This document shows, piece by piece, positions 9,845 to 56,583 of a stretch of DNA of 60,275 nt. The stretch spans positions 1 to 60,275 of the forward strand of contig WAOD01000062.1 in assembly GCA_015521465.1 (NCBI GenBank). The letters are read 5' to 3'. The stretch is from DHVE2 group archaeon (GTDB lineage Archaea; Thermoplasmatota; Thermoplasmata; Thermoplasmatales; Aciduliprofundaceae). Numbering within the stretch: the first letter of the stretch is position 1; each line of letters opens with the position of its first letter. Both the position numbers and the translations under genes were made by a program. The notes below the pieces were generated by a model. It made no database searches. It saw nothing but the letters and a program-made list of their open reading frames with translations, and was not told the DNA's origin.

Positions 9845-11420
9845 CTTGGACTCCTTTTCTTCTGTTAAAATCAAGAGAAAAAAGCCAGATTTTAGAAATG
9901 CCACTCTCGTGGATGATGTCTTCGAGCGGGACCGTGTTTTTCACTCTTTTGCCATACAGGTGAGATACATTGGCAAGGAATCCAAAACGGAATTGAGAGA
10001 GTACTTATGGGGTCCAGATGGTAAAATGAACCCTGAGATTTTGAAAGGAGCCGAGTTTGAAAGTTCAAAGGAAAAATCTGAGTTCAAGATACCTGCTGAA
10101 ATAATAGAAGAAATCAGGGAAAGGGGAGAGAAAGAAGAGGCAAAATTTCACAGGGAGCTCGAAAAAGAGAGACGAGATGTTATATTGCATCTTAAAAGGG
10201 TTCTTGAAGAGAACATGCGGGAGGAGAAATACGAAGAGGTTGAGAGGATAAAGGCTGAGATTGAGAGGCGGGAAAATGCTGAGTTACCGGAGCTTGTTGT
10301 TAAAATAGAGCCTGTTGCCCTTTTAGAGATACACGCGCCTGTAGAGATTCACCATTCTCGGCTCAGAAATGAATTTGCAGAGAAAGAGCTTACCTGGAAG
10401 TTTGACACACTTACCGGTGAGCATGATTTAAGGTGTGAGGGTTGTGGAAAAAGTGCAATGGAGTTCTATCTCACAGTTGATGGCATATCCTGTGAGAGTT
10501 GCCTGAAGGAGTGCAAGGAATGTGGAAAACCTATGATTCATGCAAAAGAATGCAAAGTTTGCCATGCTCCGTTATGTGATGAACACGCTCACTACTGCTC
10601 CACTTGTCACGAGCCCATTTGCTCAGAGCATGCTACCAAATGCAAATTTTGCAGTAATGAAATGTGTCCTGACCACGTGAACAGGTGCTCAGTTTGCAAT
10701 GCGCCATTGTGCGAAGAGCATACTTATCATTGCTCCGTTTGCGGTTCAACTATAGGCCCTATGCATGTTAGAGTTTGCGATGTTTGCGGTTCTAATGTAT
10801 GCCCTGAACATATACACAAATGTGCCATATGCGGCAAAAACGTTTGCGAAAACTGTGCAGTGGAGCTTGATGGAAAATGGTACTGCAAGGAGCATTTAGA
10901 AAAGAGCTATGGAGGTAAGTGGGTAATTCCAGAAGTACGGTGCAAGACATGCGGTGTTGCTTTAGCGAGTGATGAGATAAATCGCTGCTCTGTATGCAAC
11001 GCGCCTTTATGCGAAGAGCATACTAATCATTGTTCCGTTTGCGATGCACCCCTATGCGATGAGCATACTCATCATTGCACGATATGTAATGTGCCCCTGT
11101 GCGAGCAGCATGTATTTATCTCCGAGTTAAGTGGTAGAGAGTACTGTGAAGAGCATTCTTCATTCTGTAAAATTTGTGGTAGAATCGTAGGGAAAGATGA
11201 GCTCAAAAATGGAGTATGCCATGCCTGCTCAAACATGGTGGAGGTTAGCAGGAGAGAGATACCACGTGAAATAATGTTCAAGTTTCCGTATTCAAAGCAT
11301 GGAAAAAGATGGTTTGTGTCCAGGGGTAAAAATGTTGCGTACATTACAGAGGTAAAAGGCGTGATTCTTGCATATCGAATAGTCAATGGAGAAATTGTTG
11401 AGCATCGTGGGAAAAGGTGA
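9825..11420 (+). CDS. Cysteine/histidine-rich multi-zinc-finger protein with an N-terminal coiled coil
   Basis: It overlaps the SNF2 stop. A GGAGGT Shine-Dalgarno at 9833-9838 suggests the true start may be the TTG at 9846. There are ~15 tandem C-x2-C-x3-[LIV]-C-x2-H-x3 units. No ATG occurs near the 5' end. Confidence 0.8.
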   Translation: MVLEVFNLDSFSSVKIKRKKPDFRNATLVDDVFERDRVFHSFAIQVRYIGKESKTELREYLWGPDGKMNPEILKGAEFESSKEKSEFKIPAEIIEEIRERGEKEEAKFHRELEKERRDVILHLKRVLEENMREEKYEEVERIKAEIERRENAELPELVVKIEPVALLEIHAPVEIHHSRLRNEFAEKELTWKFDTLTGEHDLRCEGCGKSAMEFYLTVDGISCESCLKECKECGKPMIHAKECKVCHAPLCDEHAHYCSTCHEPICSEHATKCKFCSNEMCPDHVNRCSVCNAPLCEEHTYHCSVCGSTIGPMHVRVCDVCGSNVCPEHIHKCAICGKNVCENCAVELDGKWYCKEHLEKSYGGKWVIPEVRCKTCGVALASDEINRCSVCNAPLCEEHTNHCSVCDAPLCDEHTHHCTICNVPLCEQHVFISELSGREYCEEHSSFCKICGRIVGKDELKNGVCHACSNMVEVSRREIPREIMFKFPYSKHGKRWFVSRGKNVAYITEVKGVILAYRIVNGEIVEHRGKR

Positions 11421-24776: not shown

Positions 24777-26072
24777 TTATGGTTTAACCCTCCTTATAGT
24801 CCTCGGATACGGAATTGCGTACTTTATATGCTCCAAGCCTGCAATCCACCATACGAGCCTGTCCACTCCAAGTCCGAATCCCGCGTGAGGTACACTTCCG
24901 TATTTTCTCAGGTCCACGTACCAGTAGTAATCCTCTGGATTGAGGTTTTCCTCTTCAAGTCTTTTAAGCAGCACATCTAACTTGTATATCCTTTCTCCTC
25001 CACCTATAACCTCTCCGTAACCTTCAGGAGCAAGCATATCATGGCAAAGGACTACCTTGGGATTTTCTGGGTCTGGCCTGTGATAGAATGGTTTTATTTC
25101 TATTGGGTAATGTGTTATGAATACCGGCTTGTCAAAATTTTTGGTGATGGCTGATTCCTCATCGGCACCCAGATCATCTCCGTATTTCATGGATACTCCG
25201 TGCTCATTGGCAAAATCTACAAGTTTCTCGTATTTCATTCTTTCAAATGGCTTTTCTATGTTCTCTAACATTTTTGTATCCCTGTTCAGTATTTTTAATT
25301 CTTTTTTTCTGTCTTGAAGTACTTTCTGAACAATTTGAACAGTCATTTCTTCTTCGTCGTCAATCATATCGCTGTTGTGGTACCATGCGGCTTCCGCCTC
25401 AGCATGCCAGTATTCAGTCAGATGCCTCCTTGTTCTGCTTTTTTCTGCTCTAAAACTTGGTGCCACTGTATACACTTTTTCCAGGGAAAATATTAATGTT
25501 TCAAGGTAAAACTGAGAACTCTGGGTCAGGTACGCTTTTCTGTTGAAATATGGGACTTCAAACAGCGTTGAACCACCTTCTACAGCACCTGTTACAAACA
25601 TTGGGCCCTGTGTTTCATAGTATCCTTTTTCTCTAAAGAAATCATGTAACGCTCCGAAAATGGTTGACCTTATTTTGAGTATTGCATTCATCTCCCTGCT
25701 TCTTACCCATAGATGCCTGTTGTCTAAAAGGAACTCATCGCTCTTGTCTTTGGATATGGGAAAATTGAAAGAAGGTCCGACGATCTCTAAATTTTTCGCG
25801 TGTATTTCGTATCCAGTTGGCGCCCTCTCTTCTTTTGCGATGATTCCCGAAATCTTTATTGATGATTCCACCCCAACCTTGTCCAGCTCTTTGAATTTCT
25901 CGTTACCCACCACCTTTTTTTCTACCACACATTGTACAATGTCTGTGGAATCTCTCAAAACTACAAATATGAGCTTTCCAGTTCTTCTCTTTCTGTAAAT
26001 CCACCCTCTTAGCTCCACATCTTTACCAATCCAGTCATCGTTTAATATTTCCTGAACGTGTTTTATTACCAT
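24777..26072 (-). CDS. asnS: Asparaginyl-tRNA synthetase (class IIb)
   Basis: 'FRAEKSRTRRHLTEYWHAEAE' (motif 2 region). 'DMLAPEGYGEVIGGGER'. 'YYWYVDLRKYGSVPHAGFGLGVDRL' (AsnRS-type motif 3). Confidence 0.8.
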   Translation of the reverse strand: MVIKHVQEILNDDWIGKDVELRGWIYRKRRTGKLIFVVLRDSTDIVQCVVEKKVVGNEKFKELDKVGVESSIKISGIIAKEERAPTGYEIHAKNLEIVGPSFNFPISKDKSDEFLLDNRHLWVRSREMNAILKIRSTIFGALHDFFREKGYYETQGPMFVTGAVEGGSTLFEVPYFNRKAYLTQSSQFYLETLIFSLEKVYTVAPSFRAEKSRTRRHLTEYWHAEAEAAWYHNSDMIDDEEEMTVQIVQKVLQDRKKELKILNRDTKMLENIEKPFERMKYEKLVDFANEHGVSMKYGDDLGADEESAITKNFDKPVFITHYPIEIKPFYHRPDPENPKVVLCHDMLAPEGYGEVIGGGERIYKLDVLLKRLEEENLNPEDYYWYVDLRKYGSVPHAGFGLGVDRLVWWIAGLEHIKYAIPYPRTIRRVKP

Positions 26073-42105: not shown

Positions 42106-42813
42106 ATGCTCTTCCATTCTGTTCCTGGATTAGAAAAAATATTTGCAAAGGATGTAAACAAGCCAAAGGTCATCTTGATAGTGGGTCCCCCTGGCTCGAT
42201 GAAGACCACTTTTGCATACACGGTAATGACTCGTTATCTAACTCAGACAGGCGAGTTTGGGTTATATACCACCCTGGAAGAGCCCGTGGATTCACATCTT
42301 GCAAATATGGAAAGTCTTGGGATAAAATTGACCAGAAACATGCAGGTTTCTGATATTAGTGACTTGAGAGAAATGGACCTCATTTTAGGTGAGAAAGAGA
42401 AGGTGGATTATCTTTCGCTTATTGAAAAAATGATTGTGCATTTCAAGGAAGAGATGAAGGATAAGTTTTCTTTCTTCACCTTGGATTCTTTGGGTGCACT
42501 GTATTCCATAATGCCCAATACTGAAAATCTAAGGCAGCAGATGTTCTATTTCATGCGCACGCTTCATGGCTACAATTTGTATTCTTTTATAATCATGGAA
42601 GAGCAGCTTGGAGGTGGAGTCTCATACCTTGGCAACGAGGGATTCTTGGTAGATGGTATAATCCACCTCGGGGTGGACCGTTCTCGCGGCAGGCTTGTAA
42701 GGTATCTCCAGGTTGAAAAGATGCGCACTTCCGAACACAGCATGGAAAAATTTGCCTTCGAATTCCGGGATGGAAAGATAAACATTCTTGGTCCTATATT
42801 CGAGCAGGACTAA
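42106..42813 (+). CDS. KaiC/RecA-superfamily ATPase, single domain
   Basis: Walker A 'GPPGSMKT'. Walker B-like 'FFTLDSL'. 'FIIMEE'. C-terminal 'RYLQVEKMRTSEHS', typical of KaiC-like/Rad55-type archaeal ATPases. Confidence 0.7.
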   Translation: MLFHSVPGLEKIFAKDVNKPKVILIVGPPGSMKTTFAYTVMTRYLTQTGEFGLYTTLEEPVDSHLANMESLGIKLTRNMQVSDISDLREMDLILGEKEKVDYLSLIEKMIVHFKEEMKDKFSFFTLDSLGALYSIMPNTENLRQQMFYFMRTLHGYNLYSFIIMEEQLGGGVSYLGNEGFLVDGIIHLGVDRSRGRLVRYLQVEKMRTSEHSMEKFAFEFRDGKINILGPIFEQD

Positions 42814-43247
42814 ATGTCAAACAAAACCTTTGCGTATCCTTCTTTTAAATTTATTTCCAATTCGTGGTATGTCACCGCTTTTATTTCCATTTTTATGTTG
42901 TGTCTGCTCTTGTCTATTGGCTCACCAAGTGCCACTCCTGATAAAGTGTATTTCTCATCTATTTTGTGAATTATCACATTGAAATCACCCATTAGAACAA
43001 ACTCCACGCTGTAAACGTATAGCAATTCTGAAAGGTAATCTACTAAAAGGTCCTCTAAGGTTGGCGACTCTATGCTTACTCTGTACTTTCCAACAGTATA
43101 TACTTTTTCTATGTCCGTTATCAAATCAAACATCGCGTACGCTGCTTTTTCGAATAACTCCTCAACACGCTTTCCTCTTACCTTGATTCCTATATCCGCC
43201 GTGTGCTCCAGCACTTCGTAGGGCTTGGTGCTGTGCTTATCATCCAT
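42810..43247 (-). CDS. Archease
   Basis: 'YEVLEHTADIGIKVRG', 'IKAVTYHELEI'. I chose the internal ATG. Confidence 0.85.
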   Translation of the reverse strand: MDDKHSTKPYEVLEHTADIGIKVRGKRVEELFEKAAYAMFDLITDIEKVYTVGKYRVSIESPTLEDLLVDYLSELLYVYSVEFVLMGDFNVIIHKIDEKYTLSGVALGEPIDKSRHNIKMEIKAVTYHELEINLKEGYAKVLFDI

Positions 43248-43331
43248 AAATAGTAATTCACAGGTATGCTTTAAGCTTTTCCTTTCTTGTTTATTCCGCA
43301 AGTATTAATTTATTCAAATGCATGCTGGCTT

Positions 43332-44810: not shown

Positions 44811-45974
44811 ATGTATCTTACAAGAGAAGAGGAAAAGGTACTTGATGGAGAGTTAGGAACTGGTTACGAGAAGATGATGCGCATTCTTGTAAAGATGGGA
44901 GAGATATTTGGAGCGGAGCGTCTCATACCTGTGAAATCCGCACAGATATCTGGTGTGTCATACAGGACAATAGGTGATGCGGGGTTGCATTTTTTAAAAA
45001 GCTTGCACGGAGTTCGTGTGTCCGTTCCAGCTACTCTAAATCCTCTTGCATTTGATGACGATCATTTAAAAGAGCTACGTGTTGATGAGGAAATGTATCA
45101 AAAGCAGATGGAGATCATAACGGCATATACGGACATGGGAATAAAGCCCACGATGACCTGTACTCCCTATTATTACGATAATGTTCCAGATTTTGGAGAG
45201 CATATTGCATGGGCGGAAAGTTCTGCGGTTATATATGCTAATTCCATTATTGGTGCAAGAACAAATAGAGAAGGTTCTGTAAGTGCACTTGCATCTGCGG
45301 TCATTGGAAAAACGCCAGAGTACGGTTATCATCTCAAAGAAAATAGAAAAGCAACGCACATTATAGATGTTAATTTCGAGCCGGAAGGCGAGGATTATCC
45401 GCTTATTGGACTATTTGTGGGTTCTGCAGTGGATGGGGTGCCATACTTCCGAATAAGAGGTGATTACACAGACTTTAAGTTGATGGGTGCTGCCATGGCT
45501 GCCTCTGGGAGCGTGGCCATGTACCATGTGGAAAGCATCACGCCGGAGTATAAGGGTGCTTTGAATGATAATGTGGAACGGATAACTGTCGATAGGAATG
45601 ACATTGAGGGGTTCAAAGGAGCTCCGGTGGACGTTGAGTTGGTGGCCATAGGGTGCCCTCATGTTTCTCGTGATGAACTGAGAAAGATTGCCGAGTTTTT
45701 AGATGGTAAAAGGAAAAAAAGAGGCGTGGAGTTATGGATATTTGCTGCCAAAAGCGTCATGGATAGAAGCGATGAATATGTGAATGTTATACGCAAATTT
45801 GGGGGCAAGGTAATGAAAGATACTTGCGTGGTGGTAAGCAATGCCGGAAAGATATACAGTTATATAGGAACAAATTCTGGAAAGGCCGCTTTTTACCTGC
45901 GCAAAGAAAAGTTTGGAGGTGCTAAGGTTGTGGTTCGTGACATGTACACTTTATTAAGGAGCGTGATTGAATGA
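44811..45974 (+). CDS. Aconitase-X (DUF521) catalytic subunit; candidate phosphomevalonate dehydratase large subunit
   Basis: 'MYLTREEEKVLDGELG', 'TCTPY', 'WAESSAVIYANS', 'IGCPH'. Confidence 0.75.
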   Translation: MYLTREEEKVLDGELGTGYEKMMRILVKMGEIFGAERLIPVKSAQISGVSYRTIGDAGLHFLKSLHGVRVSVPATLNPLAFDDDHLKELRVDEEMYQKQMEIITAYTDMGIKPTMTCTPYYYDNVPDFGEHIAWAESSAVIYANSIIGARTNREGSVSALASAVIGKTPEYGYHLKENRKATHIIDVNFEPEGEDYPLIGLFVGSAVDGVPYFRIRGDYTDFKLMGAAMAASGSVAMYHVESITPEYKGALNDNVERITVDRNDIEGFKGAPVDVELVAIGCPHVSRDELRKIAEFLDGKRKKRGVELWIFAAKSVMDRSDEYVNVIRKFGGKVMKDTCVVVSNAGKIYSYIGTNSGKAAFYLRKEKFGGAKVVVRDMYTLLRSVIE

Positions 45975-46339
45975 TTGTGCGGGGTAAAGTGATATATCCA
46001 GGGGTAGCAAAGGGAAAAGCAGTTAAATGCGAAAAGCCAGTGGTTATCCTCGGGGACGTGGACGCAAAAAAAGGCACTGTGGAAGGATGCGGTAATGTGA
46101 AGAACAAAATTCTTGTTTTTCCCCGGGGTGCAGGAAGCACGGTTGCTTCATACACTATCTACGCGCTTAGATATTACAACACAGCTCCAGCTGGTATAAT
46201 AGTTGAAAATGCCGAGCCAATTGTGGTGGCAGGCTCAATAATAGCGGAGATACCAACGGTGGATGGCATAGACCTATCATTAATAAAGTCGGGTATGTTG
46301 GTGAAAATAGAGAATGACAGGGTGATAATTCCTGATTAA
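45971..46339 (+). CDS. Aconitase-X swivel subunit (DUF126); candidate phosphomevalonate dehydratase small subunit
   Basis: 122 aa. 'ILVFPRGAGSTVASYTIY', 'AGIIVENAEPIVVAGSIIAEIP'. ATGA overlap with the large subunit. Confidence 0.7.
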   Translation: MIVRGKVIYPGVAKGKAVKCEKPVVILGDVDAKKGTVEGCGNVKNKILVFPRGAGSTVASYTIYALRYYNTAPAGIIVENAEPIVVAGSIIAEIPTVDGIDLSLIKSGMLVKIENDRVIIPD

Positions 46340-49300
46340 AGCTTTCCATCAACCGTTTCCTTCAGTTTTTCTATTTCTTTGTCATCTTCCAATTCTTCAA
46401 CGTTAAACAGCATTATAGCGTTCGCTTTCTGTATTTCCTCTTTTATCTCCTTTATAAAGTCGTTTATAGTATCAAAACCGTTTATTGCCACCATGAAGTC
46501 AAATGCATCCCACATTACTATTTTTGCACCTTTTGCCAGGTTCTTTATTATTGCATCTTTCAGGCTTTCAAGGTCCTTTGGCTTGATATTCTTGCCCATC
46601 GGCACGTAAGATATCCATATTACCGAGGTGTTTTTCAGGTTGTACTCTTTTTTTACAGTGTCTGGATCTTCCTTTGTTATAAGCACTTTCTTTTCGTCTT
46701 TGTAGGAGGATGTGACTATGGAGGCAACCTTGGAGAAATCACCCCAGGCAAGGTAAATTTTGCCTTCCGAAATTCCCTCTTTCTTTTCCATCTCAACTCT
46801 TATCGGTGCACCACAATGTGGACAAAAATCGTCGTCTTCGCTCAGCTCTGTTCCGCAGAACGGGCACACATTTTTTCCATTCTCTTTTTTCGGTTTAAAT
46901 GCCGTGGAAAACAGGTACTCTTTTATTTTGTTGGCAAAGCTCATTGAGAAGCCAGGTATCTCAGCCAGGTCCGTTGGCGATGCTTGCATCAACTCGTAAA
47001 CGCTTCCGTACCCCATTTGGAACAGCGTTTCTGCTTTGTTCTCTGCAATTCCCGGGATGCTCATAAATGCCTTTATGACCCACTTTTTAAAAAGAGGATT
47101 TATTCCTATAATCACGTCAAAATCCATTATTGGCCACTCTATAACGTAAGCGTATTCCACGTATTCAAAATCCACATTTCTTGCTCGTGTTCTCTCTTTT
47201 ATTTCATCGGTGTATCCCTTTAAAATACGGAGTATGTAGTTGTCAGAGGATATGCTGACATCTATAACATCGTCGTAATCCATGTTTATATCTTTACGCA
47301 TGTAGTTTATGCGCCTTATAACCTCGTTTACCATCCTTATACGCATGGTGGTAATATCTCTTTCAGTGTTGAAGTATAAGTCTCCGTACTTGGATTCCCT
47401 TTTCACGTATCCTTTAGGAACTTTCTCTATAAATTTAACCATGTCCGGGGTGATGCGCACCACGAACCCTTCTATGCCCATGGTATAGCCGCCTACGTTC
47501 AGTGCGTTCATAACATCTTTTATATTTTTGCGTTTCAGCAAATACGCTATTTTTGGGGCCCATGAACGGTACATTCTGTTAATTGCTTCAACATCCGGTT
47601 CGATGATAACGTCCATTTCTTCCCATTTTTCAGTGGGATAAAACACGAGAACGTTTGTAAATCTCATAATTATCTCTGAGAACTCTTTTAACATCTCTGC
47701 TTTTTCCGATACAAATACCACCTTTTTTAAGGGCTCTCTACGGGGAATTCCCCTTTCCTTTCTGAATTTCATGATTTGTCTAATAATACTCCTGACAATT
47801 TCCATTCCCTTTACTTCCAAAACCTCTGTTGTTTCAATTTTTATTGTCTCAGCGTTCATTTTAGATAGGAATTCTTCGCTAAATTCCTGGTCAAATACCA
47901 AAAACATTCTAAGTGCGTCTAATATTGGCTCTTCTAAAATGGATTCTTTTCTTCTCATGCTTACGTAAAATCTGGAAATGTCTTTCACGGCAAAATTGTA
48001 AAGTAAGTGAAAAGCATCTTTGAAGTTCCCGTTATTTGCTCTGGAAATAAAACCCCTTTTTACCTGTTCTGTTCTGTATAGCATCCAGTTATCAATTATG
48101 TCTCTGGGTTCAGATTTTCCGTATATTTCTATGTACTTTTTGAGATTTTCCAGTACGTTTTTTAGTTTTCTAATTTTGGTGGCGTTGTCCCCAACTTTAC
48201 CCCTGTTCTTGAGCATGTAGAGTACTTGTTCAACATCCTCTTCTGGGTATTTGCTGCGAATTATATATGTGTAATCGGAAATCTTCTTGTTATTTGCTTT
48301 TAAGAACTCGTTAATGATTTTATATTTTTGCCTTTTCTCATGAAGGAATGCCACGCCTTCTCCGCTACCCATGCTGTAATAAGCGCCTACCGTAATGAAT
48401 GATGGGTTGTAAAAAAATGGTCTCTCCATAACATTTCCACAAATTGGACAGTTTTTGACCTGTTCATCTCCGTGCTCAAAGTGACCGCATGAGTTACAGT
48501 ACAGTATGGGCATCCGGTACGCTCCGCCGTCCGCTGAAATTTCAATGTTTATTTTTTCGTCTTTTAGGTGCAGCTTGGGTATATTCACCTCCTTTAATAC
48601 ATCACCGCACTTGGGGCACACCAATCTCTTTACTTTGAATGTGACAGAGTATATGACGGAATATGAAGAAATCCTCTTTTTAAGGTTGTATTCGTCCACA
48701 TCTCTTTTAGTGAGATACCCCGTGTGATAGTTTCCCACTGCAACGTATTTAACAATTTTGATATTTTTTGATATATCTCCAAACTTCCCGGTCATAATTT
48801 CCTGCTCGGGTACTTCTATTTTGTTTATCAGCACATCTTTCATGTCTGCTGGAGCAATCCAGATCTCATTGCCCATTTGCACGTATATTAAATCCTCATT
48901 GTCGCTTATGGCCAATCCTACTGGATCATACCCTTTCTTTATTTTATCTATGAAGTACAACCTGCGTCCAATTCGAACTCTCACGATGTTGTAGACCTCA
49001 TCTATTTCCTCCTCTTTAACTTCATCTTTGGAGTAATGGGTGTTGCACCTCCTGCAGTAATAACTTTTTCTGGTGACAATTCTCAATTTACCATCTTTGT
49101 ACAGCTCCCCTATCAAATTGTCAAGCTCACCTATATACTCTTCCGCTTTTATTATATTGAAATCTCCATCTATTTTTTTTATTACCTCGTAATCCTCGTC
49201 TCTAATCCCGTATGTAACCACGTTTACGTTTACGTCTTCCCCTAATATTCTTTTGAATCTTTTATAGGTGGAGTAATGAACAAACTCATCAATTTCTTCT

Positions 49301-49356
49301 TTTGTCACTTTGTTTTCAATGGGATACGTGAATATTTGCCCACTCATACTAATCAT
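46336..49356 (-). CDS. Class-Ia aaRS-like (IleRS-like) paralog without HIGH/KMSKS, fused to HhH, a double zinc ribbon and a DUF835/KaiC-like C-terminal domain
   Basis: Anticodon-binding-domain signature 'DNWMLYRTEQV....FKDAFHLLYNFAVKDISRFYVSMRR'. IleRS-type C-terminal segments 'IVRSIIRQIMKFRKERGIPRREPL' and 'MVNEVIRRINYMRKDINMDYDDVI'. Several CxxC ribbons. 'IPGIAENKAETLF...LAEIPGFSMSFANKI'. 'CPFCGTELSEDDDFCPHCG'. Confidence 0.6.
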   Translation of the reverse strand: MISMSGQIFTYPIENKVTKEEIDEFVHYSTYKRFKRILGEDVNVNVVTYGIRDEDYEVIKKIDGDFNIIKAEEYIGELDNLIGELYKDGKLRIVTRKSYYCRRCNTHYSKDEVKEEEIDEVYNIVRVRIGRRLYFIDKIKKGYDPVGLAISDNEDLIYVQMGNEIWIAPADMKDVLINKIEVPEQEIMTGKFGDISKNIKIVKYVAVGNYHTGYLTKRDVDEYNLKKRISSYSVIYSVTFKVKRLVCPKCGDVLKEVNIPKLHLKDEKINIEISADGGAYRMPILYCNSCGHFEHGDEQVKNCPICGNVMERPFFYNPSFITVGAYYSMGSGEGVAFLHEKRQKYKIINEFLKANNKKISDYTYIIRSKYPEEDVEQVLYMLKNRGKVGDNATKIRKLKNVLENLKKYIEIYGKSEPRDIIDNWMLYRTEQVKRGFISRANNGNFKDAFHLLYNFAVKDISRFYVSMRRKESILEEPILDALRMFLVFDQEFSEEFLSKMNAETIKIETTEVLEVKGMEIVRSIIRQIMKFRKERGIPRREPLKKVVFVSEKAEMLKEFSEIIMRFTNVLVFYPTEKWEEMDVIIEPDVEAINRMYRSWAPKIAYLLKRKNIKDVMNALNVGGYTMGIEGFVVRITPDMVKFIEKVPKGYVKRESKYGDLYFNTERDITTMRIRMVNEVIRRINYMRKDINMDYDDVIDVSISSDNYILRILKGYTDEIKERTRARNVDFEYVEYAYVIEWPIMDFDVIIGINPLFKKWVIKAFMSIPGIAENKAETLFQMGYGSVYELMQASPTDLAEIPGFSMSFANKIKEYLFSTAFKPKKENGKNVCPFCGTELSEDDDFCPHCGAPIRVEMEKKEGISEGKIYLAWGDFSKVASIVTSSYKDEKKVLITKEDPDTVKKEYNLKNTSVIWISYVPMGKNIKPKDLESLKDAIIKNLAKGAKIVMWDAFDFMVAINGFDTINDFIKEIKEEIQKANAIMLFNVEELEDDKEIEKLKETVDGKL

Positions 49357-51755: not shown

Positions 51756-51882
51756 TTTTTCTCTAACATGCATACTAAATAATTTTTATTATAAAATCAT
51801 CGTTGAGAATCTCCGTCTTTTGATGCAGCGTTGTAAAGAATATCTCCTCAAATCTTATATAGTAAATTGTACATTGTATCTT

Positions 51883-54800
51883 ATGAAGTGGAGTGCATTT
51901 GTTATCGTAATTATGGTGATTTTAAGCATATTTACGGGTATTCTTATCAACACCTTTAACGGTGAAAGTGTGCATAGGAGCATTCAATCACTTTCGTCAT
52001 CTATTGAAACCCTTGATACGGTCAGGGCAACTCCCCATCTTGACTGGAATGGAAGCTTTCCATATAATGTGCAGGCACTACCATTCGTAATGCATGGAAA
52101 GGTAAATGTTACTGCAGTAGGCGATGTAAATGGTGATGGGAAGGTTGATGTAATATTTTCATCCACTGATGATGATAAGATTTTCGTGTATTTCAACAGA
52201 GGGGAATATACCAGCGTTTTTCCATCGCTTGTTCTCAACGATTCCGATGGTATAAATGAACCGGTTGATGTTTCGGTGGTAGATGGTCTTCTTGCGGTTG
52301 CATCCCATGTAACAACGTTGTCTCCTCCCACTGAAACTGATACCGTGAAGTTGTATAATTTGACAAGTGGAAAAATCATATCTTTAAAACCCCCTACTGG
52401 AGCGACTGGTGTTGATTATGAGATAACTTCCCTTGCAGTGGGTGATTTTAATGGGGATGGAAAGGAAGATATAGCTGCGGCATTTTCTGTAAATGGTTCG
52501 TTATCCACTACACAGAAAAGTAAGATAGATATCTATTTCTCGCCGTTTACAGATAATCAGAGTGCCAATGAGACTATTTCTGTGGATTGGAATATTGAGA
52601 AAATTACCGCCGGTAATTTCAGGACTGTGGGCGAAAAAGATATTGCTGCGGTGGTGAATAATAGAACCGACGTGCTGGTATTCTATCCGGATTCATCAGG
52701 TGATTTTAGCTCAAATGATTATTCTGAGCATCCCGTTAATTACACCACGACTATTTGCGCTCATGATTTGAATAATGATGGAATAGATGAGTTGATAGTT
52801 GGCGATTCAGGTACGGGTAATGTTAGCATTTATCACGCTAATGACGGAAGCGATTTGCCAGAGTATCCTTCTTTAAATATAACCGAAGATTCTGGGGTGA
52901 GTGCAATAGCGGTTGGTAATTTTAATCCGGATGCATATCCTGATATTGTAGTGGCCAGAAAGGATGTGCTTGTGGATGGCCATGATGTTCCATTGTACCT
53001 GAGAATTTACGATGGCCCTTGGAATTTTAATGGAGGAAGTATTAATGCCCCTAGTAGAACCATATTTGCAGGATACAATGTTTTGGACATGAAGGTGGCA
53101 GATATAAACGGTGACGGAATGGACGACCTAATAACTTGCGATTACGGGGGGTTTAACGATTACCCCTCCGTGCCATATGTTCTGTATCAGCGAGATGGGT
53201 ATCTGAAGGGTATTGCGGACGAATCATTGTACGGGGGACTTCTTCCCAGTGGTGTTGCAATAGGTGATATAAACGGTGATTCTCTAAATGATATTGTTGT
53301 TGCCCAAACTAAGGCAAACAAAACAGGCGTTTTTCTAAATGATGGATACGGATTTCCACGGTTCTACTCTACAGTTAACAATACTCCCGGGAATCCGGGC
53401 TTTGTTGCACTATCCAACATATCCAATGCGTACCGTGATGATATTGTTGTCAGCCACCTTTCTGATGGGAATTTAACTTTATACAGCACCAGTGGAAATA
53501 TTCTCACATTAAGAACGTATATGAACACAACTTACATGGTGATGTTTGGTGACACGCGCAATGAAAATGAAAGTGATATACTTGTTAATTCTCTTACTAA
53601 CCCCGAGATTGATATATTTTTAGGAGATGGTTTTTCTAATGATAGTCTTCCGCAGGTTAGAGTTCCACTATTCAATGTTTCTCGTGATTTTTCACTCATT
53701 AGTGTTATGGGAGAGCGTTATCCAGAACTTGTTGTAATGTACTCCACAAACATTACCATATATAAGCAGAATACCGTAAGCAATTTTACACCTGAGGAAG
53801 TAATACCCAATCCTTCCGGTTACAATGGTGCAGCGATTGCAGTGGGTGATTTCAATGGTGATGGAAAGGATGACCTTCTTGCAATCTACAACAGTAACAC
53901 TTCTTTTAAGTCTATGTATGCTATTTACTCTCAAAATGAGGATACCATTCAGAATGCTTCATATATTTCTGGAAACTTAACAGGAAGAGTAAGAAGCGTT
54001 ACTGTGGGTGATTTCAACGACGATGGTGTTCCTGATTTTGCAGTGGTGACAAATTACAATATGGTTGTAGTTGCCTACAATGATGAAAGTGTTTTCAATT
54101 ACGACTACTTTGCGACTGATCCAAATCCCGTGTATATAGCTTCTGGTGATGTCAATGGTGATGGAAAGGAAGACATAGTCGTTTCAGCTGATAGTCCCGT
54201 GTACGATGCTTTACCAAGAGAAGTGGATATGGTGGATGTTTACTACCAGAAAGATACAAAACCCGTTGCAAATATTTCTGGGCCTCAGGAAATCTACGAA
54301 GGCCATTACCTGAATCTAAGTGCTGAGAATTCCACGGATACCTTATCCGATATATCTTCCCTGAATTACACATGGTACGTTAAGAATGGAAGTGAGTGGT
54401 CTTTTGTTTCATATGGTGTGAATCTCTCATACTTTGTGAAAACTCAAGGCAATTATACATTCATGGTAGTTGTTAAGGATAAAGAGGGTTTAAGTGATAA
54501 TGCAACCAAAAATGTTACTGTTCTTGATACAGTTCCTGTGGTTAATTTTACATACTACAACGCTGTTGAGGGACAAAACACAACGTTTCATGCAAACATA
54601 AGCGCGTATGATGGTGTTGACGAAATCAAGTGGGACATGAACGGTGATGGGATGTGGGATTTTTATAATACAACATGGGTAAACTACACATATAAGGAGA
54701 ATGGAACGTATCACGTTAATCTTACCGTAATTGATGGTGATGGGAGCGTAGGATATGTGAACAAGACGGTATTTATAAAAGACACAGTTCCCACGTGCAA

Positions 54801-56583
54801 TTTCTCATATTCCCCCAAAGTTATATACGAGGGTGAAGTGGTTAGTTTTACTGCTTCTTGGAGCTCTTACGACCCCGTGGTAAACTGGACATGGTATATC
54901 TCGAATAATGTTTTGTACGGTAAAAATATAAATTATACATTTCAGGAGAACGGTACCTACACGGTAACTCTTCAGGTTAGAGACAGTGACGGTTCTGTGG
55001 CAAACTCATCTAAAAAACTTGTTGTTCTGGACACGCAACCCATAGTGAACTTCACTTATAGCCCTCAAGTGGTTTACGAGGGTGAAAGCGTTAATTTCAC
55101 TGCGCATGTTGAGTCATACGATGAAATAAAGTCGTATTTCTGGGATTTTGGAGATGGTAATTACTCCACAGATAAGAATCCCACCCATGTTTTTAATGAA
55201 AATGGAACATATACCGTTACTTTGTATGTAACTGATGCTGATGGCTCCAATGTTAGTGCCTCCAAGGTAATTGTGGTCAAAAATGTAAAACCCTCGGTTA
55301 CTCTTGCCTATACCAATGCCGTAGAGGGAGAGAACACCACATTTTACGTAAATATAACATCTTATGATGGGATTAAGTACGTGGTTCTTTATTTTGGGGA
55401 CGGAAAGAAGGTGAATATCACAAATCCTCCAAATCACCTGAAAATATACCATGTGTACGTTAGAAATGGCAGCTATGAAGCAAGTGTTTTTGTGAAGACT
55501 CTTAACGGCGATCAGGCAAGCAGTGCTATAACCGTTGTGGTAGAGGATACATTACCAAAAGTGGTTCTTAGAGTGATAGGTTCAAGTGTTGTCAAAGAAG
55601 ACGAACGGGTGTGGCTCAGTGCAAATGGAACCACTGCTTACGATGGAATAAAAGAGTATTTATGGGATTTTAACTATATGAACAACCATTTCACTGCTGA
55701 TAAATCTACCGAGGTTCCATATACTTTCACAAGTTTCCCGGAGCGGGGCAATTATACTGTTGCTGTGATGGTGATTGATGGCGATGGCTCAGGAGCTCTT
55801 GGATTTGCGAAGATAACCGTGGTGAACGTTCCTCCTGTGGCTAATTTTACGTATAATATATCTTATAATGTGGTTTATGTTGATGGCTCTCACTCATATG
55901 ATACCCCGTCTGACAAGGCATCTTTGATTTACATGTGGAACTTTGGAGATGGCTCCCATGTTGTGTATGGTATGACCGCAGAGCATGAATACAAGAAACC
56001 GGGAAAGTATGTGATAACGCTAATTGTTAAGGATAATGATGGAGTAGAAAGTAAAATGAGCAAGGTTATTGAAATAAAAACAGTACCCGTAACAAACGGT
56101 GGTACTGCAGACAAAACACTGGGCTTAATTCTACTTATACTCATTCCTATAATTGGAGGACTTTTAGCAGTTCTTATATACATGCGAGGAAAACAGGCAA
56201 TCATAGATGATGTGTACCTCATATCTGATTCTGGGTTGCTTATACACCATTCTACGAGAAGATTGAAACCTGATATGGATGAGGATGTGCTATCCAGCAT
56301 GTTAGTTGCCATACAGGAATTTGTTAAAGATGCCTTCAAAGGAGAGACCGATGTATCGCTCAAGAGCATGGACTTTGGAAACAAGAAGATACAGATTCAC
56401 CGGGGCAAGCATCTGTTTCTTGCAGTTGTGAGCAACAGGGACGTACCCAAGAAACTTGCAGGGAAAATATCCTCAATCCTAAATGAGATAGAGGAGAAGT
56501 ACGGGAAAGTTTTGGAGAACTGGGATGGAGACGTGTCTGCGTTCAGGGGTGTAGAGGAGATTCTTAAAAAGATATGGGAATGA
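51883..56583 (+). CDS. Giant type-I membrane protein: FG-GAP/VCBS beta-propeller repeats, ~8 PKD modules, one TM, and a cytoplasmic Roadblock/LC7-like domain
   Basis: Nine 'GD.NGDG..D' calcium-loop repeats. PKD signatures 'WDFGDGNYSTDKNPTHVFNENGTYTVTLYVTDADG' and 'WNFGDGSHVV...HEYKKPGKYVITLIVKDNDG'. TM 'LGLILLILIPIIGGLLAVLIY'. The 133-aa tail starts 'DDVYLISDSGLLIHH'. Start set at the ATG before the signal anchor; the ORF is open from 51820. Confidence 0.8.
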   Translation: MKWSAFVIVIMVILSIFTGILINTFNGESVHRSIQSLSSSIETLDTVRATPHLDWNGSFPYNVQALPFVMHGKVNVTAVGDVNGDGKVDVIFSSTDDDKIFVYFNRGEYTSVFPSLVLNDSDGINEPVDVSVVDGLLAVASHVTTLSPPTETDTVKLYNLTSGKIISLKPPTGATGVDYEITSLAVGDFNGDGKEDIAAAFSVNGSLSTTQKSKIDIYFSPFTDNQSANETISVDWNIEKITAGNFRTVGEKDIAAVVNNRTDVLVFYPDSSGDFSSNDYSEHPVNYTTTICAHDLNNDGIDELIVGDSGTGNVSIYHANDGSDLPEYPSLNITEDSGVSAIAVGNFNPDAYPDIVVARKDVLVDGHDVPLYLRIYDGPWNFNGGSINAPSRTIFAGYNVLDMKVADINGDGMDDLITCDYGGFNDYPSVPYVLYQRDGYLKGIADESLYGGLLPSGVAIGDINGDSLNDIVVAQTKANKTGVFLNDGYGFPRFYSTVNNTPGNPGFVALSNISNAYRDDIVVSHLSDGNLTLYSTSGNILTLRTYMNTTYMVMFGDTRNENESDILVNSLTNPEIDIFLGDGFSNDSLPQVRVPLFNVSRDFSLISVMGERYPELVVMYSTNITIYKQNTVSNFTPEEVIPNPSGYNGAAIAVGDFNGDGKDDLLAIYNSNTSFKSMYAIYSQNEDTIQNASYISGNLTGRVRSVTVGDFNDDGVPDFAVVTNYNMVVVAYNDESVFNYDYFATDPNPVYIASGDVNGDGKEDIVVSADSPVYDALPREVDMVDVYYQKDTKPVANISGPQEIYEGHYLNLSAENSTDTLSDISSLNYTWYVKNGSEWSFVSYGVNLSYFVKTQGNYTFMVVVKDKEGLSDNATKNVTVLDTVPVVNFTYYNAVEGQNTTFHANISAYDGVDEIKWDMNGDGMWDFYNTTWVNYTYKENGTYHVNLTVIDGDGSVGYVNKTVFIKDTVPTCNFSYSPKVIYEGEVVSFTASWSSYDPVVNWTWYISNNVLYGKNINYTFQENGTYTVTLQVRDSDGSVANSSKKLVVLDTQPIVNFTYSPQVVYEGESVNFTAHVESYDEIKSYFWDFGDGNYSTDKNPTHVFNENGTYTVTLYVTDADGSNVSASKVIVVKNVKPSVTLAYTNAVEGENTTFYVNITSYDGIKYVVLYFGDGKKVNITNPPNHLKIYHVYVRNGSYEASVFVKTLNGDQASSAITVVVEDTLPKVVLRVIGSSVVKEDERVWLSANGTTAYDGIKEYLWDFNYMNNHFTADKSTEVPYTFTSFPERGNYTVAVMVIDGDGSGALGFAKITVVNVPPVANFTYNISYNVVYVDGSHSYDTPSDKASLIYMWNFGDGSHVVYGMTAEHEYKKPGKYVITLIVKDNDGVESKMSKVIEIKTVPVTNGGTADKTLGLILLILIPIIGGLLAVLIYMRGKQAIIDDVYLISDSGLLIHHSTRRLKPDMDEDVLSSMLVAIQEFVKDAFKGETDVSLKSMDFGNKKIQIHRGKHLFLAVVSNRDVPKKLAGKISSILNEIEEKYGKVLENWDGDVSAFRGVEEILKKIWE

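What the first reader, a model, noticed from the sequence alone, without database searches (positions are those of the whole stretch)
46336..49356. Catalytically dead IleRS-like paralog fused to HhH, a double zinc ribbon and a DUF835/KaiC-like domain
Residues ~415-475 carry the class-Ia anticodon-binding signature ('DNWMLYRTEQV...FKDAFHLLYNFAVKDISRFYVSMRR'). Residues ~515-545 and ~670-700 resemble the archaeal IleRS C-terminal junction and terminal domains. The N-terminus aligns with the Rossmann entry ('...FVHYSTYKRFKRILGEDVNV' against 'H.GH....I.KD...RY..M.G.DV'), but HIGH is gone and I can find no KMSKS. Four to five CxxC ribbons remain. After residue ~760 the protein has two helix-hairpin-helix motifs, a double zinc ribbon (CPFCGTELSEDDDFCPHCG) and a ~145-aa C-terminal domain with the look of DUF835. 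So the tRNA-recognising scaffold is kept, the aminoacylation chemistry is lost, and nucleic-acid-binding and putative oligomerisation or ATPase-like modules are added. It is divergently arranged with the lipid-synthase pair, and a stand-alone KaiC-like ATPase lies at 42106. Possible roles are tRNA(Ile) sensing, sequestration or modification, or a regulatory scaffold. I know of no characterised protein with this architecture.
Basis: partly seen in the sequence, partly recalled or inferred. Interest (0 to 1): 0.75.

Follow-up and report, generated by a model that had tools for sequence, protein, structure and literature searches.

The report
Dead IleRS with RadA-like iKaiC tail
This gene encodes an isoleucyl-tRNA synthetase that has lost all its catalytic and proofreading motifs but keeps its tRNA-recognising body and a conserved RadA/KaiC-like tail; it is found in every DHVE2 (Aciduliprofundum) genome examined, sits where related archaea keep their working, tailed synthetase, and has never been studied.

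Summary
ORF 46336-49356(-) encodes a 1006-aa (or 1003-aa) protein with significant Anticodon_1, DUF5915 (IleRS C-terminal domain), HhH, zinc-ribbon and DUF835 matches. It has no tRNA-synt_1 match. The predicted structure is nonetheless IleRS-like end to end (Foldseek E 1.6e-38 to IleRS2). HIGH, KMSKS, DQTRGWF and both editing motifs are gone.

Three points change the reading.
(1) The tail is not an addition to a dead enzyme. It is ancestral and widespread on fully active IleRS across Thermoplasmata, including Methanomassiliicoccus luminyensis.
(2) The gene is not a stray paralogue. It occupies the conserved ileS slot beside the AcnX pair, so it is the positional orthologue of the tailed ileS. 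It is present in all seven DHVE2 genomes examined, including cultured Ca. Aciduliprofundum boonei (Aboo_0847).
(3) The tail as a whole folds like RadA/Rad51 (HhH domain plus a RecA/KaiC core without a P-loop). DUF835 is the published 'iKaiC'.

Constraint is inverted: the ex-catalytic parts are least conserved, and DUF5915, HhH and the zinc ribbon are most conserved. Most likely it is a non-catalytic tRNA(Ile)-binding adaptor or sensor that works through its tail. I could not locate the functional ileS of these genomes, and no function has been tested.

The parts
46336..49356 (-). Whole ORF: 1006 aa from the ATG at 49356, or 1003 aa from the ATG at 49347. Stop codon at 46336-46338. This is the 'class C' degenerate IleRS with a RadA-like tail.
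49057..49356 (-). Residues 1-100: remnant of the first Rossmann half. The strand-loop-helix is kept in the model (E6-9, H19-37). The HIGH loop is replaced by 'YPIENKVTKEE', and 'GWDxHGLP' is lost.
48607..49056 (-). Residues 101-250: CP1 zinc knuckle (C101/C104 with C247/C250) enclosing a shrunken editing-domain remnant of about 140 aa. It lacks WTTTPWT and GTGxVH.
48412..48606 (-). Residues 251-315: second structural zinc site (C287/C290 with C303/C306), invariant in classes A, B and C.
48112..48411 (-). Residues 316-415: remnant of the second Rossmann half and stem-contact fold. DQTRGWF and KMSKS are absent. Class-C-specific conserved basic motifs 'F[LI]HxKR' (337-342) and 'KKRG' (383-386) lie here.
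47707..48111 (-). Residues 416-550: class-Ia anticodon-binding helical domain (Pfam Anticodon_1). D422, W424, A448, S461 and Y464 are invariant with active IleRS.
47101..47706 (-). Residues 551-752: IleRS C-terminal tRNA-binding domain (DUF5915). It is one of the most conserved parts of the family (69% mean pairwise identity) and contains 'EVIRRINYMRKD'.
46891..47100 (-). Residues 753-822: (HhH)2 domain like the RadA N-terminal domain, followed by the class-C-specific '[FY]xTAFKPKK' linker motif. It is the most conserved segment (79%).
46783..46890 (-). Residues 823-858: single zinc ribbon, CPFCG-x10-CPHCG.
46339..46782 (-). Residues 859-1006: DUF835 / iKaiC, a RecA/KaiC-type alpha/beta core. 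It has no Walker A but keeps a Walker-B-like D950 and an invariant N959.
44811..46339 (+). AcnX large subunit (44811-45974) and AcnX swivel subunit (45971-46339), named phosphomevalonate dehydratase by UniRef. They are convergent with the gene and overlap its 3' end by 4 bp. This is the conserved synteny marker of the Thermoplasmata ileS slot, not a functional part.

Best explanation
The gene is the direct positional descendant of the tailed isoleucyl-tRNA synthetase gene of Thermoplasmata. In the DHVE2/Aciduliprofundum lineage it has become a pseudo-enzyme.

Shown:
- The IleRS architecture is kept: two Rossmann halves, both structural zinc sites, the anticodon-binding bundle and the DUF5915 C-terminal tRNA-binding domain.
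- Every motif for Ile-AMP formation, transfer and editing is erased, and the editing domain is cut down.
- The C-terminal module folds like RadA: an (HhH)2 domain, a linker with a zinc ribbon, and a P-loop-less RecA/KaiC core (DUF835, 'iKaiC').
- Selection is now strongest on DUF5915, HhH and the zinc ribbon.

Inferred mechanism: the protein still binds the anticodon arm of tRNA(Ile) through the retained helical bundle and DUF5915 domain, without charging it. It uses the HhH-iKaiC tail to self-assemble or to dock onto a partner, most plausibly a KaiC-family ATPase. The working enzymes of related archaea would also perform this tail-dependent 'second job'. Once another ileS supplied Ile-tRNA in DHVE2, only the second job was retained. 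That job is a tRNA(Ile)-dependent adaptor or sensor function.
For: - Identity as IleRS-derived: Pfam Anticodon_1 and DUF5915. The family profile hits IleRS2 8c8u (E 6e-8) over 414-718, plus the CP1 knuckle. The AF2 model (pLDDT 81.8) matches IleRS2 8c8v at E 1.6e-38 over about 1000 columns, ahead of ValRS and LeuRS.
- Loss of chemistry: motif columns; TIGR00392 gives 25 bits against a cut-off of 621.
- Positional orthology: AcnX-swivel and AcnX lie convergent downstream of active tailed ileS in about 45 loci, and of the degenerate gene in the window, L001-3, L005, L006 and L087-89.
- Tail ancestral on active enzymes.
- Tail fold: model pLDDT 91.9. Foldseek gives RadA 2zud at E 1.7e-8 over 272 columns spanning both domains, then Rad51/Dmc1, then KaiC C1 at 2e-6. 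HMMER matches the RadA N-terminal domain.
- No P-loop in any class.
- DUF835 is 'iKaiC', an output domain of archaeal response regulators (PMC5847659).
- Retained function: intact ORFs in all DHVE2 genomes examined. Synonymous sites are saturated (pS about 0.8) while pN is 0.28-0.43 in the N-terminal part and 0.14-0.29 in the tail.
- Inverted constraint: class C is 0.40-0.46 identical in the Rossmann halves, 0.69 in DUF5915 and 0.79 in HhH. Active enzymes are 0.61 in the catalytic part and 0.27 in the HhH-linker.
- IleRS-wide invariant residues of the anticodon and C-terminal domains are kept.
Against: - No experiment or computation here shows tRNA binding, oligomerisation or any partner.
- No partner gene is conserved in the neighbourhood. 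The KaiC-family gene 4 kb away in the window is absent near the orthologues.
- The sequence-level link between DUF835 and KaiC was not reproduced (hhalign). It rests on fold and on a published classification.
- The functional ileS of DHVE2 genomes was not located, so co-existence is inferred from essentiality.
- The NJ tree groups class C with the other degenerate forms on long branches. This could mean an old paralogue clade rather than in-situ decay.
- The N-terminal remnant keeps its own conserved motifs (FxHxKR, KKRG), which may point to a function I have not recognised.
Confidence: 0.5

Rival explanations
1. It is a non-catalytic helper of the real IleRS or of a multi-synthetase/translation assembly. 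In this view it is a tRNA(Ile)-handing cofactor or scaffold, in the manner of Arc1p/AIMP-type tRNA-binding cofactors or the inactive catalytic-like module of the PheRS beta subunit. It would join the complex through its iKaiC tail.
For: - The same retained tRNA-binding body and tail.
- The related class-B paralogue sits at the end of the exosome/ribosomal-protein/prefoldin superoperon, a translation and RNA-processing context.
- In Aciduliprofundum and L006 the gene is divergent from a class-II aaRS gene.
Against: - No partner has been identified.
- It is unknown whether the real DHVE2 IleRS carries a tail to pair with.
- Neighbourhood beyond AcnX is not conserved across DHVE2.
Confidence: 0.2
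2. The tRNA-related body is only a structural leftover. The working part would be the RadA-like tail, acting on DNA or on recombination/repair proteins as RadA paralogues do.
For: - The tail's best structural matches are RadA/Rad51/Dmc1 and Rad51 paralogues, across both domains.
- The HhH domain aligns to the RadA N-terminal domain, and the class-C '[FY]xTA' motif aligns to RadA 'FKTA'.
- Stand-alone HhH-DUF835 proteins exist (P0327).
Against: - The core is about 145 aa with no P-loop, and I saw no counterpart of the DNA-binding loops.
- In the representative search of the tail, the HhH-DUF835 module was almost always attached to IleRS-derived proteins carrying DUF5915.
- DUF5915, a tRNA-binding domain, is among the most constrained parts.
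- The '[FY]xTA' motif is absent from class A.
Confidence: 0.1
3. It is a highly divergent but still functional isoleucyl-tRNA synthetase, possibly the only one in the genome.
For: - It lies in the ancestral ileS slot.
- It maps to COG0060 in one resource.
- I could not show a second ileS in the same genomes.
Against: - All ATP-, Ile- and editing-site signatures are missing in about 20 orthologues.
- The former catalytic halves are the least conserved parts.
- TIGR00392 gives 25 bits against a cut-off of 621, and Pfam tRNA-synt_1 gives no hit.
Confidence: 0.02
4. It is a decaying relic with no function.
For: The ex-catalytic part evolves about twice as fast as the tail.
Against: - Full-length intact ORFs occur in every DHVE2 genome examined, at 34-68% identity.
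- pN is far below the saturated pS.
- 67% mean column identity, with many invariant residues even in the N-terminal part.
- The AF2 model is confident.
Confidence: 0.03

Closest known systems
Archaeal/eukaryote-type (type 2) isoleucyl-tRNA synthetase, e.g. PDB 8C8V (P. megaterium IleRS2) and 8WND (yeast IleRS-tRNA complex)
   Same: Overall fold and domain order. Both structural zinc sites, the anticodon-binding helical bundle, and the DUF5915 C-terminal tRNA-binding domain with its invariant Arg residues.
   Different: No HIGH-type loop, KMSKS, DQTRGWF or GWDxHG. The editing domain is reduced and lacks both of its motifs. An extra RadA-like tail of about 250 aa is present. The conservation pattern is inverted.
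Tailed, active IleRS of Thermoplasmata (class A), e.g. Methanomassiliicoccus luminyensis IleRS, 1301 aa, annotated 'isoleucine--tRNA ligase'
   Same: The same HhH-(zinc ribbon)-DUF835 tail fused after DUF5915. The same genomic slot, convergent with AcnX-swivel/AcnX.
   Different: Class A keeps all catalytic and editing motifs and is 1280-1500 aa. Its HhH-linker region is poorly conserved (0.27) and its zinc ribbon is optional. Class C is about 1000 aa and inactive, with highly conserved HhH, a universal zinc ribbon and a '[FY]xTAFKPKK' motif.
DUF835 / 'iKaiC' output domain of archaeal response regulators (REC-DUF835; Galperin et al. 2018, PMC5847659)
   Same: The same Pfam family, scoring above the cut-off. 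A RecA/KaiC-type core without a P-loop.
   Different: Here the input module is an IleRS-derived tRNA-binding body plus an HhH domain, instead of a phospho-receiver domain. The function of iKaiC is itself only proposed.
RadA / Rad51 / Dmc1 recombinases
   Same: The same two-domain layout (N-terminal (HhH)2 domain, linker, RecA-type core). These are the best Foldseek matches. In class C a linker motif aligns with the RadA FxxA polymerisation motif.
   Different: No Walker A. The core is about 145 aa rather than about 230 aa. A zinc ribbon is inserted in the linker. TM-scores are low (0.34-0.44). No evidence of DNA binding.
Non-catalytic synthetase relatives (from my own knowledge, not tested here): the HisRS-like domain of GCN2, HisZ, and the inactive LeuRS copy of Sulfolobus islandicus
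   Same: A synthetase scaffold that has lost aminoacylation and is kept for binding or regulation. In GCN2 it is fused to a signalling domain and senses uncharged tRNA.
   Different: A different synthetase family, different appended domains and a different lineage. Here the dead copy occupies the ancestral gene's position. No functional data exist.

Membership tests
Isoleucyl-tRNA synthetase (class Ia, EC 6.1.1.5) | Rossmann-fold active site with the HIGH-type signature (archaeal form PPYTTGxIH[LIMV]GT) | tested here: not met
   Replaced by a variable 'YPIxxKxxxxx' in all class-C sequences. It is present in about 60 active enzymes aligned alongside.
Isoleucyl-tRNA synthetase (class Ia, EC 6.1.1.5) | KMSKS loop and the DQTRGWF / GWDxHGLP substrate-site motifs | tested here: not met
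   No counterpart in the aligned columns.
Isoleucyl-tRNA synthetase (class Ia, EC 6.1.1.5) | CP1 editing domain with WTTTPWT and GTGxVHxAP | tested here: not met
   Both motifs are absent. The segment between the zinc-knuckle cysteines is about 140 aa, against about 205 aa in T. thermophilus IleRS by my recollection.
Isoleucyl-tRNA synthetase (class Ia, EC 6.1.1.5) | Curated family models reach their cut-offs (TIGR00392; Pfam tRNA-synt_1) | tested here: not met
   TIGR00392 gives 25.2 bits against a cut-off of 621.4. PF00133 gives no hit.
Isoleucyl-tRNA synthetase (class Ia, EC 6.1.1.5) | Anticodon-binding helical domain and IleRS-type C-terminal domain (DUF5915) | tested here: met
   PF08264 at 31.8 bits (cut-off 25.1) and PF19302 at 27.2 bits (cut-off 27). 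The profile hits IleRS2 8c8u residues 670-998.
Isoleucyl-tRNA synthetase (class Ia, EC 6.1.1.5) | Overall IleRS fold | tested here: met
   Foldseek E 1.6e-38 to 8c8v over 1011 columns. IleRS structures rank above ValRS and LeuRS.
Isoleucyl-tRNA synthetase (class Ia, EC 6.1.1.5) | Aminoacylation of tRNA(Ile) | not testable with these tools
   Needs ATP-PPi exchange and charging assays.
DUF835 / iKaiC (PF05763) | Pfam model above the gathering score | tested here: met
   67.6 bits against a cut-off of 33.1, E 1.3e-18, residues 881-988.
DUF835 / iKaiC (PF05763) | RecA/KaiC-type alpha/beta core lacking the Walker-A P-loop | tested here: met
   The tail model (pLDDT 91.9) matches RadA/Rad51 and KaiC C1. 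No GxxxxGK[ST] is present in any of 51 aligned tails, and the Walker-B-like Asp is kept.
RadA/Rad51 recombinase | N-terminal (HhH)2 domain followed by a RecA core | tested here: met
   HMMER hit to RadA residues 6-82. Foldseek alignment of about 270 columns over both domains.
RadA/Rad51 recombinase | Walker A/B ATPase site and full-size core with DNA-binding loops | tested here: not met
   No Walker A. The core is about 145 aa. TM-scores are 0.34-0.44.
Tailed ileS locus of Thermoplasmata (positional orthology) | Gene carrying DUF5915-HhH-DUF835, convergent with AcnX-swivel and AcnX | tested here: met
   Seen in the window, L001-3, L005, L006 and L087-89, as in about 45 loci with an active gene.
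Anti-phage defence systems (PADLOC) | Match to any defence-protein model | tested here: not met
   No hit at E <= 0.01.

The most novel reading that the evidence does not exclude
The protein is an archaeal counterpart in principle of GCN2. It would be a dead synthetase body that reads the state of tRNA(Ile) (for example uncharged tRNA during starvation) and passes the signal through its iKaiC/RadA-like tail to KaiC-family ATPases. By my recollection of Makarova et al. 2017, which I could not read here, those ATPases have been proposed as the signalling hubs of archaea. The same tail on active IleRS of Methanomassiliicoccales and other Thermoplasmata would then be a built-in link between Ile-tRNA charging and cell signalling.
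Probability: 0.12. Interest if true: 0.9.

Novelty: new variant of a known kind. Interest (0 to 1): 0.62.

Why it matters
As far as I know, how archaea sense amino-acid starvation or the charging state of tRNA is unresolved; to my knowledge they lack both the RelA/(p)ppGpp route and GCN2.

This locus offers two things:
- A widespread but undescribed appended module (HhH plus iKaiC, RadA-like) on the housekeeping IleRS of a large archaeal group that includes human-gut methanogens.
- A natural separation-of-function variant in DHVE2, where catalysis is gone but the tRNA-binding body and tail are under strong selection.

That makes the tail's function directly testable, and in a cultured organism (Ca. 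Aciduliprofundum boonei, Aboo_0847).

The locus is also a clear case of a synthetase gene kept in place as a pseudo-enzyme while its essential job must have moved elsewhere. Finally, it exposes annotation errors: 'valyl-tRNA synthetase' for AGB04056.1, and plain 'isoleucine--tRNA ligase' for enzymes that are about 350 aa longer than usual.

Tried and rejected
(1) Locating the functional ileS of DHVE2 genomes.
- tblastn of active IleRS against the window found only this gene.
- A search with the core of the closest active relative (L010) returned only Methanomassiliicoccales-type tailed enzymes in the 120 hits shown, none with DHVE2-like composition.
- P0020 (contig at 31% GC) and L067 (69% GC) were excluded as DHVE2 candidates by composition.
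- The accession-number trick failed because the sources give no accessions for the MAG proteins.

(2) Sequence-only proof that residues 1-420 are IleRS-derived. hhalign gave only P = 0.0034 for residues 71-178. Structure was needed.

(3) A suspected tandem IleRS duplicate in L058 turned out to be a ValRS-like gene.

(4) Linkage to KaiC-family genes. They lie nearby in the window, L090, L027 and L056, but not in L001, L006, L087 or L089. This is not conserved.

(5) hhalign of the DUF835 profile against the window's KaiC-family protein found no signal.

(6) dN/dS could not be computed because synonymous sites are saturated. Only pN against pS was usable.

(7) The NJ tree of the shared region is dominated by long branches and was poorly rooted, so I did not use it to decide orthology.

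(8) A defence-system reading found no PADLOC hit.

(9) Literature. Several searches timed out. Makarova et al. 2017 is not held, so I could not check whether it mentions the IleRS fusion.

Full report
**1. The observation**

The database copy begins at the second ATG (1003 aa). A TATA-like box lies about 27 nt upstream of the first ATG, so both starts remain possible.

Pfam gives significant matches:
- Anticodon_1, residues 422-546
- DUF5915, residues 587-733 (the C-terminal domain of archaeal/eukaryote-type IleRS)
- HHH_5, residues 763-813
- a zinc ribbon, residues 829-852
- DUF835, residues 881-988 (E 1.3e-18)

Residues 1-420 match nothing. The NCBIfam ileS model scores 25 bits against a cut-off of 621. 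The window contains no other IleRS-like gene and no other class-I synthetase among its large ORFs.

**2. Is the N-terminal part really a dead IleRS?**

Sequence alone is weak. A family profile hits IleRS2 structures over 414-718, and only faintly over the CP1 zinc-knuckle segment. Profile-profile comparison of residues 1-420 with active catalytic domains gives P = 0.0034 for residues 71-178.

Structure settles it. The AlphaFold2 model built on 16 orthologues has a mean pLDDT of 81.8. It matches type-2 IleRS 8c8v at E 1.6e-38 over about 1000 columns, followed by yeast and S. aureus IleRS, and only then by ValRS and LeuRS.

I aligned the protein with about 60 active archaeal IleRS. Every functional signature is missing:
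- the HIGH-type loop (PPYTTGxIH[LIMV]GT in archaea)
- WTTTPWT and GTGxVH of the editing site
- DQTRGWF
- xMSKS

The model keeps the first strand-loop-helix. The loop is therefore overwritten ('YPIENKVTKEE') rather than deleted as MAFFT suggested.

The four CxxC pairs of the body are invariant across dead and active forms. By my recollection they correspond to IleRS's two structural zinc sites.

**3. Relatives define three classes**

- **Class A.** IleRS of 1280-1500 aa with all motifs intact and the same HhH/(zinc ribbon)/DUF835 tail. It is found in about 45 species loci of Methanomassiliicoccales, Methanomethylophilaceae and other Thermoplasmata. In a second search essentially all of the top 120 hits were class A, including the enzyme of cultured Methanomassiliicoccus luminyensis (1301 aa). 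These are annotated plainly as 'isoleucine--tRNA ligase'.
- **Class B.** Full-length but degenerate forms: P0017, P0018, L015 and L072, with L030 and L065 as variants.
- **Class C.** The window's type: about 1000 aa, degenerate and shortened, found only in DHVE2-group genomes.

The tail therefore predates the loss of activity.

**4. Position**

In nearly every class-A locus the ileS gene is followed, convergently, by the AcnX-swivel and AcnX genes. UniRef names these phosphomevalonate dehydratase subunits. The window gene has exactly this arrangement, with a 4-bp overlap. So do its orthologues in L001-3, L005 and L006.

I used AcnX as a probe and found the two complete or cultured DHVE2 genomes, Ca. 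Aciduliprofundum boonei T469 and Aciduliprofundum sp. MAR08-339. Both carry a 1007-aa or 1005-aa class-C protein in the same slot: PurH, AcnX, AcnX-swivel, class C, class-II aaRS, Opp. All class-C motifs are conserved in them.

Class C is thus present in all seven DHVE2 genomes examined and is the positional orthologue of the tailed ileS. Class B lies elsewhere, at the end of the exosome/proteasome superoperon, and is a true extra copy.

**5. The tail**

I modelled residues 743-1006 with 51 sequences and obtained pLDDT 91.9. The whole tail superposes best on archaeal RadA and on Rad51/Dmc1 across both domains (E about 1e-8, about 270 columns), then on KaiC domains.

HMMER independently aligns residues 756-825 to the RadA N-terminal domain. 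In that alignment the class-C motif '[FY]xTAFKPKK' falls on RadA 'FKTA'. By my recollection this is the FxxA polymerisation motif. It is conserved only in class C.

The DUF835 core has no Walker A in any class. It keeps a Walker-B-like Asp (D950) and an invariant Asn.

The only paper in the library that mentions DUF835 calls it 'iKaiC', an inactivated KaiC-like ATPase domain. That paper lists it as an output domain of archaeal response regulators (PMC5847659). I could not reproduce the KaiC link by sequence.

An exhaustive search with the tail found the module almost only on IleRS-derived proteins. It also found stand-alone HhH-DUF835 (293 aa) and zinc-ribbon-DUF835 (258 aa) proteins, which are plausible donors.

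**6. Selection**

All class-C genes are intact. Synonymous sites are saturated (pS about 0.8). Non-synonymous differences are 0.28-0.43 in the ex-catalytic part and 0.14-0.29 in the tail. The whole protein is therefore under purifying selection.

Within class C, mean pairwise identity by region is:
- Rossmann halves: 0.40-0.46
- Anticodon domain: 0.48
- DUF5915: 0.69
- HhH: 0.79
- Zinc ribbon: 0.70
- DUF835: 0.61

In active class-A enzymes the catalytic part is 0.61 and the HhH-linker region is 0.27. Constraint has moved from chemistry to the tRNA-binding C-terminal domain and the front of the tail.

**7. Most likely mechanism**

Shown: an IleRS scaffold without any catalytic or editing signature; retained anticodon-binding and C-terminal tRNA-binding domains with IleRS-wide invariant residues; and a RadA-like HhH-iKaiC tail.

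Inferred: the protein binds the anticodon arm of tRNA(Ile) without charging it. It uses the tail to oligomerise or to dock on a partner, most plausibly a KaiC-family ATPase. This would continue a second function that the tail already gives to active IleRS in related archaea.

A working ileS must exist elsewhere in these genomes, because Ile-tRNA formation is essential. I could not show this, since the relevant searches were capped.

Rival readings are scored separately: helper of the real IleRS or of a synthetase complex, a DNA-related RadA-paralogue role, a divergent active enzyme, and a decaying relic. The last two are very unlikely.

**8. What is known**

Databases name the cultured-organism orthologues inconsistently:
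- 'DUF835 domain-containing protein' (WP_008082614.1, WP_015282708.1)
- 'Uncharacterized protein' (UniProt B5IAI7, Aboo_0847)
- 'Anticodon-binding domain family'
- 'valyl-tRNA synthetase' (AGB04056.1), which is wrong

I found no paper linking IleRS to KaiC or DUF835. A recent synthetase domain catalogue lists neither HhH nor iKaiC as appended domains (PMC11580382).

Dead synthetase relatives are a known kind. From my own knowledge, examples are the HisRS-like domain of GCN2, HisZ, and the inactive LeuRS copy in Sulfolobus. This architecture, its in-place origin, and the wide occurrence of the tail on active enzymes appear undescribed. I file it as a new variant of a known kind, with an interest score of 0.62.

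Noticed in passing
L008-L063 (e.g. L010:3382-7633, L037:8129-12302); protein P0088: The housekeeping IleRS of most Thermoplasmata, including cultured Methanomassiliicoccus luminyensis, is 1280-1500 aa. It carries an HhH-(zinc ribbon)-DUF835 tail that public annotation ignores ('isoleucine--tRNA ligase').
   Followed up: yes
L090:4905-9266 (P0018) and L090:10880-12404: A full-length but motif-dead IleRS-tail paralogue (class B) sits at the 3' end of the exosome/proteasome/L37ae/RpoP/Pcc1/prefoldin superoperon. Two KaiC-family ATPase genes lie 1.6 kb downstream.
   Followed up: partly
L065:7940-13259; L030:1164-5421: Two further odd IleRS-tail proteins. L065 is a 1773-aa form with HIGH changed to 'HIGL' and KMSKS to 'RMNVS', but with WTTTPWT kept. 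L030 is a 1419-aa form that is degenerate at all motifs in a different way from class B. These may be independent steps toward pseudo-enzymes.
   Followed up: no
L011, L014, L017, L019, L031 (motif columns): A group of otherwise intact tailed IleRS has 'QMHKS' instead of KMSKS, and 'H[LM]GQ' instead of 'HxGT'.
   Followed up: no
L058:4528-7167: A ValRS-like 879-aa gene ('ATTRPE', 'HMGH', and 'PMHTS' in place of KMSKS) lies directly upstream of the tailed ileS in a Thermoplasmatota MAG.
   Followed up: partly
L068:8129-11270, L070:8129-11291: Some Methanomassiliicoccus IleRS lack the tail (about 1050 aa) although AcnX is still downstream in L070. This is a secondary loss, so the tail is dispensable for the enzyme as such.
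   Followed up: partly
L089:11521-14538 (AGB04056.1): The class-C protein of Aciduliprofundum sp. MAR08-339 is annotated 'valyl-tRNA synthetase' in GenBank. This is a mis-annotation.
   Followed up: yes
window 24777-26072 (-): A class-II synthetase (tRNA-synt_2 plus OB anticodon domain). In Aciduliprofundum and in L006 its homologue is the immediate divergent neighbour of the class-C gene. In this window it lies about 20 kb away, with UbiA/PcrB in its place.
   Followed up: partly
window 42106-43301: A KaiC-family ATPase (235 aa, Walker A intact) is convergent with an archease gene and overlaps it by 4 bp. By my recollection archease is a cofactor of the tRNA ligase RtcB. Neither is conserved next to the class-C gene in other genomes.
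   Followed up: partly
window 51820-56583 (+): A 1587-aa FG-GAP/PKD-repeat surface protein. It has a C-terminal membrane helix and a cytoplasmic domain of about 130 aa with no Pfam match. It lies just after divergent tRNA-Leu(UAA) and tRNA-Ser(CGA) genes.
   Followed up: no
window 9825-11420 (+): A 531-aa ORF with no Pfam match, overlapping the end of an SNF2-family helicase gene (8198-9844).
   Followed up: no
proteins P0327 (293 aa), P0365 (258 aa), P0358 (587 aa): Stand-alone HhH-DUF835 and zinc-ribbon-DUF835 proteins, and an HhH-DUF835 protein with an unknown 300-aa N-terminal part. These are candidate sources of the IleRS tail.
   Followed up: partly
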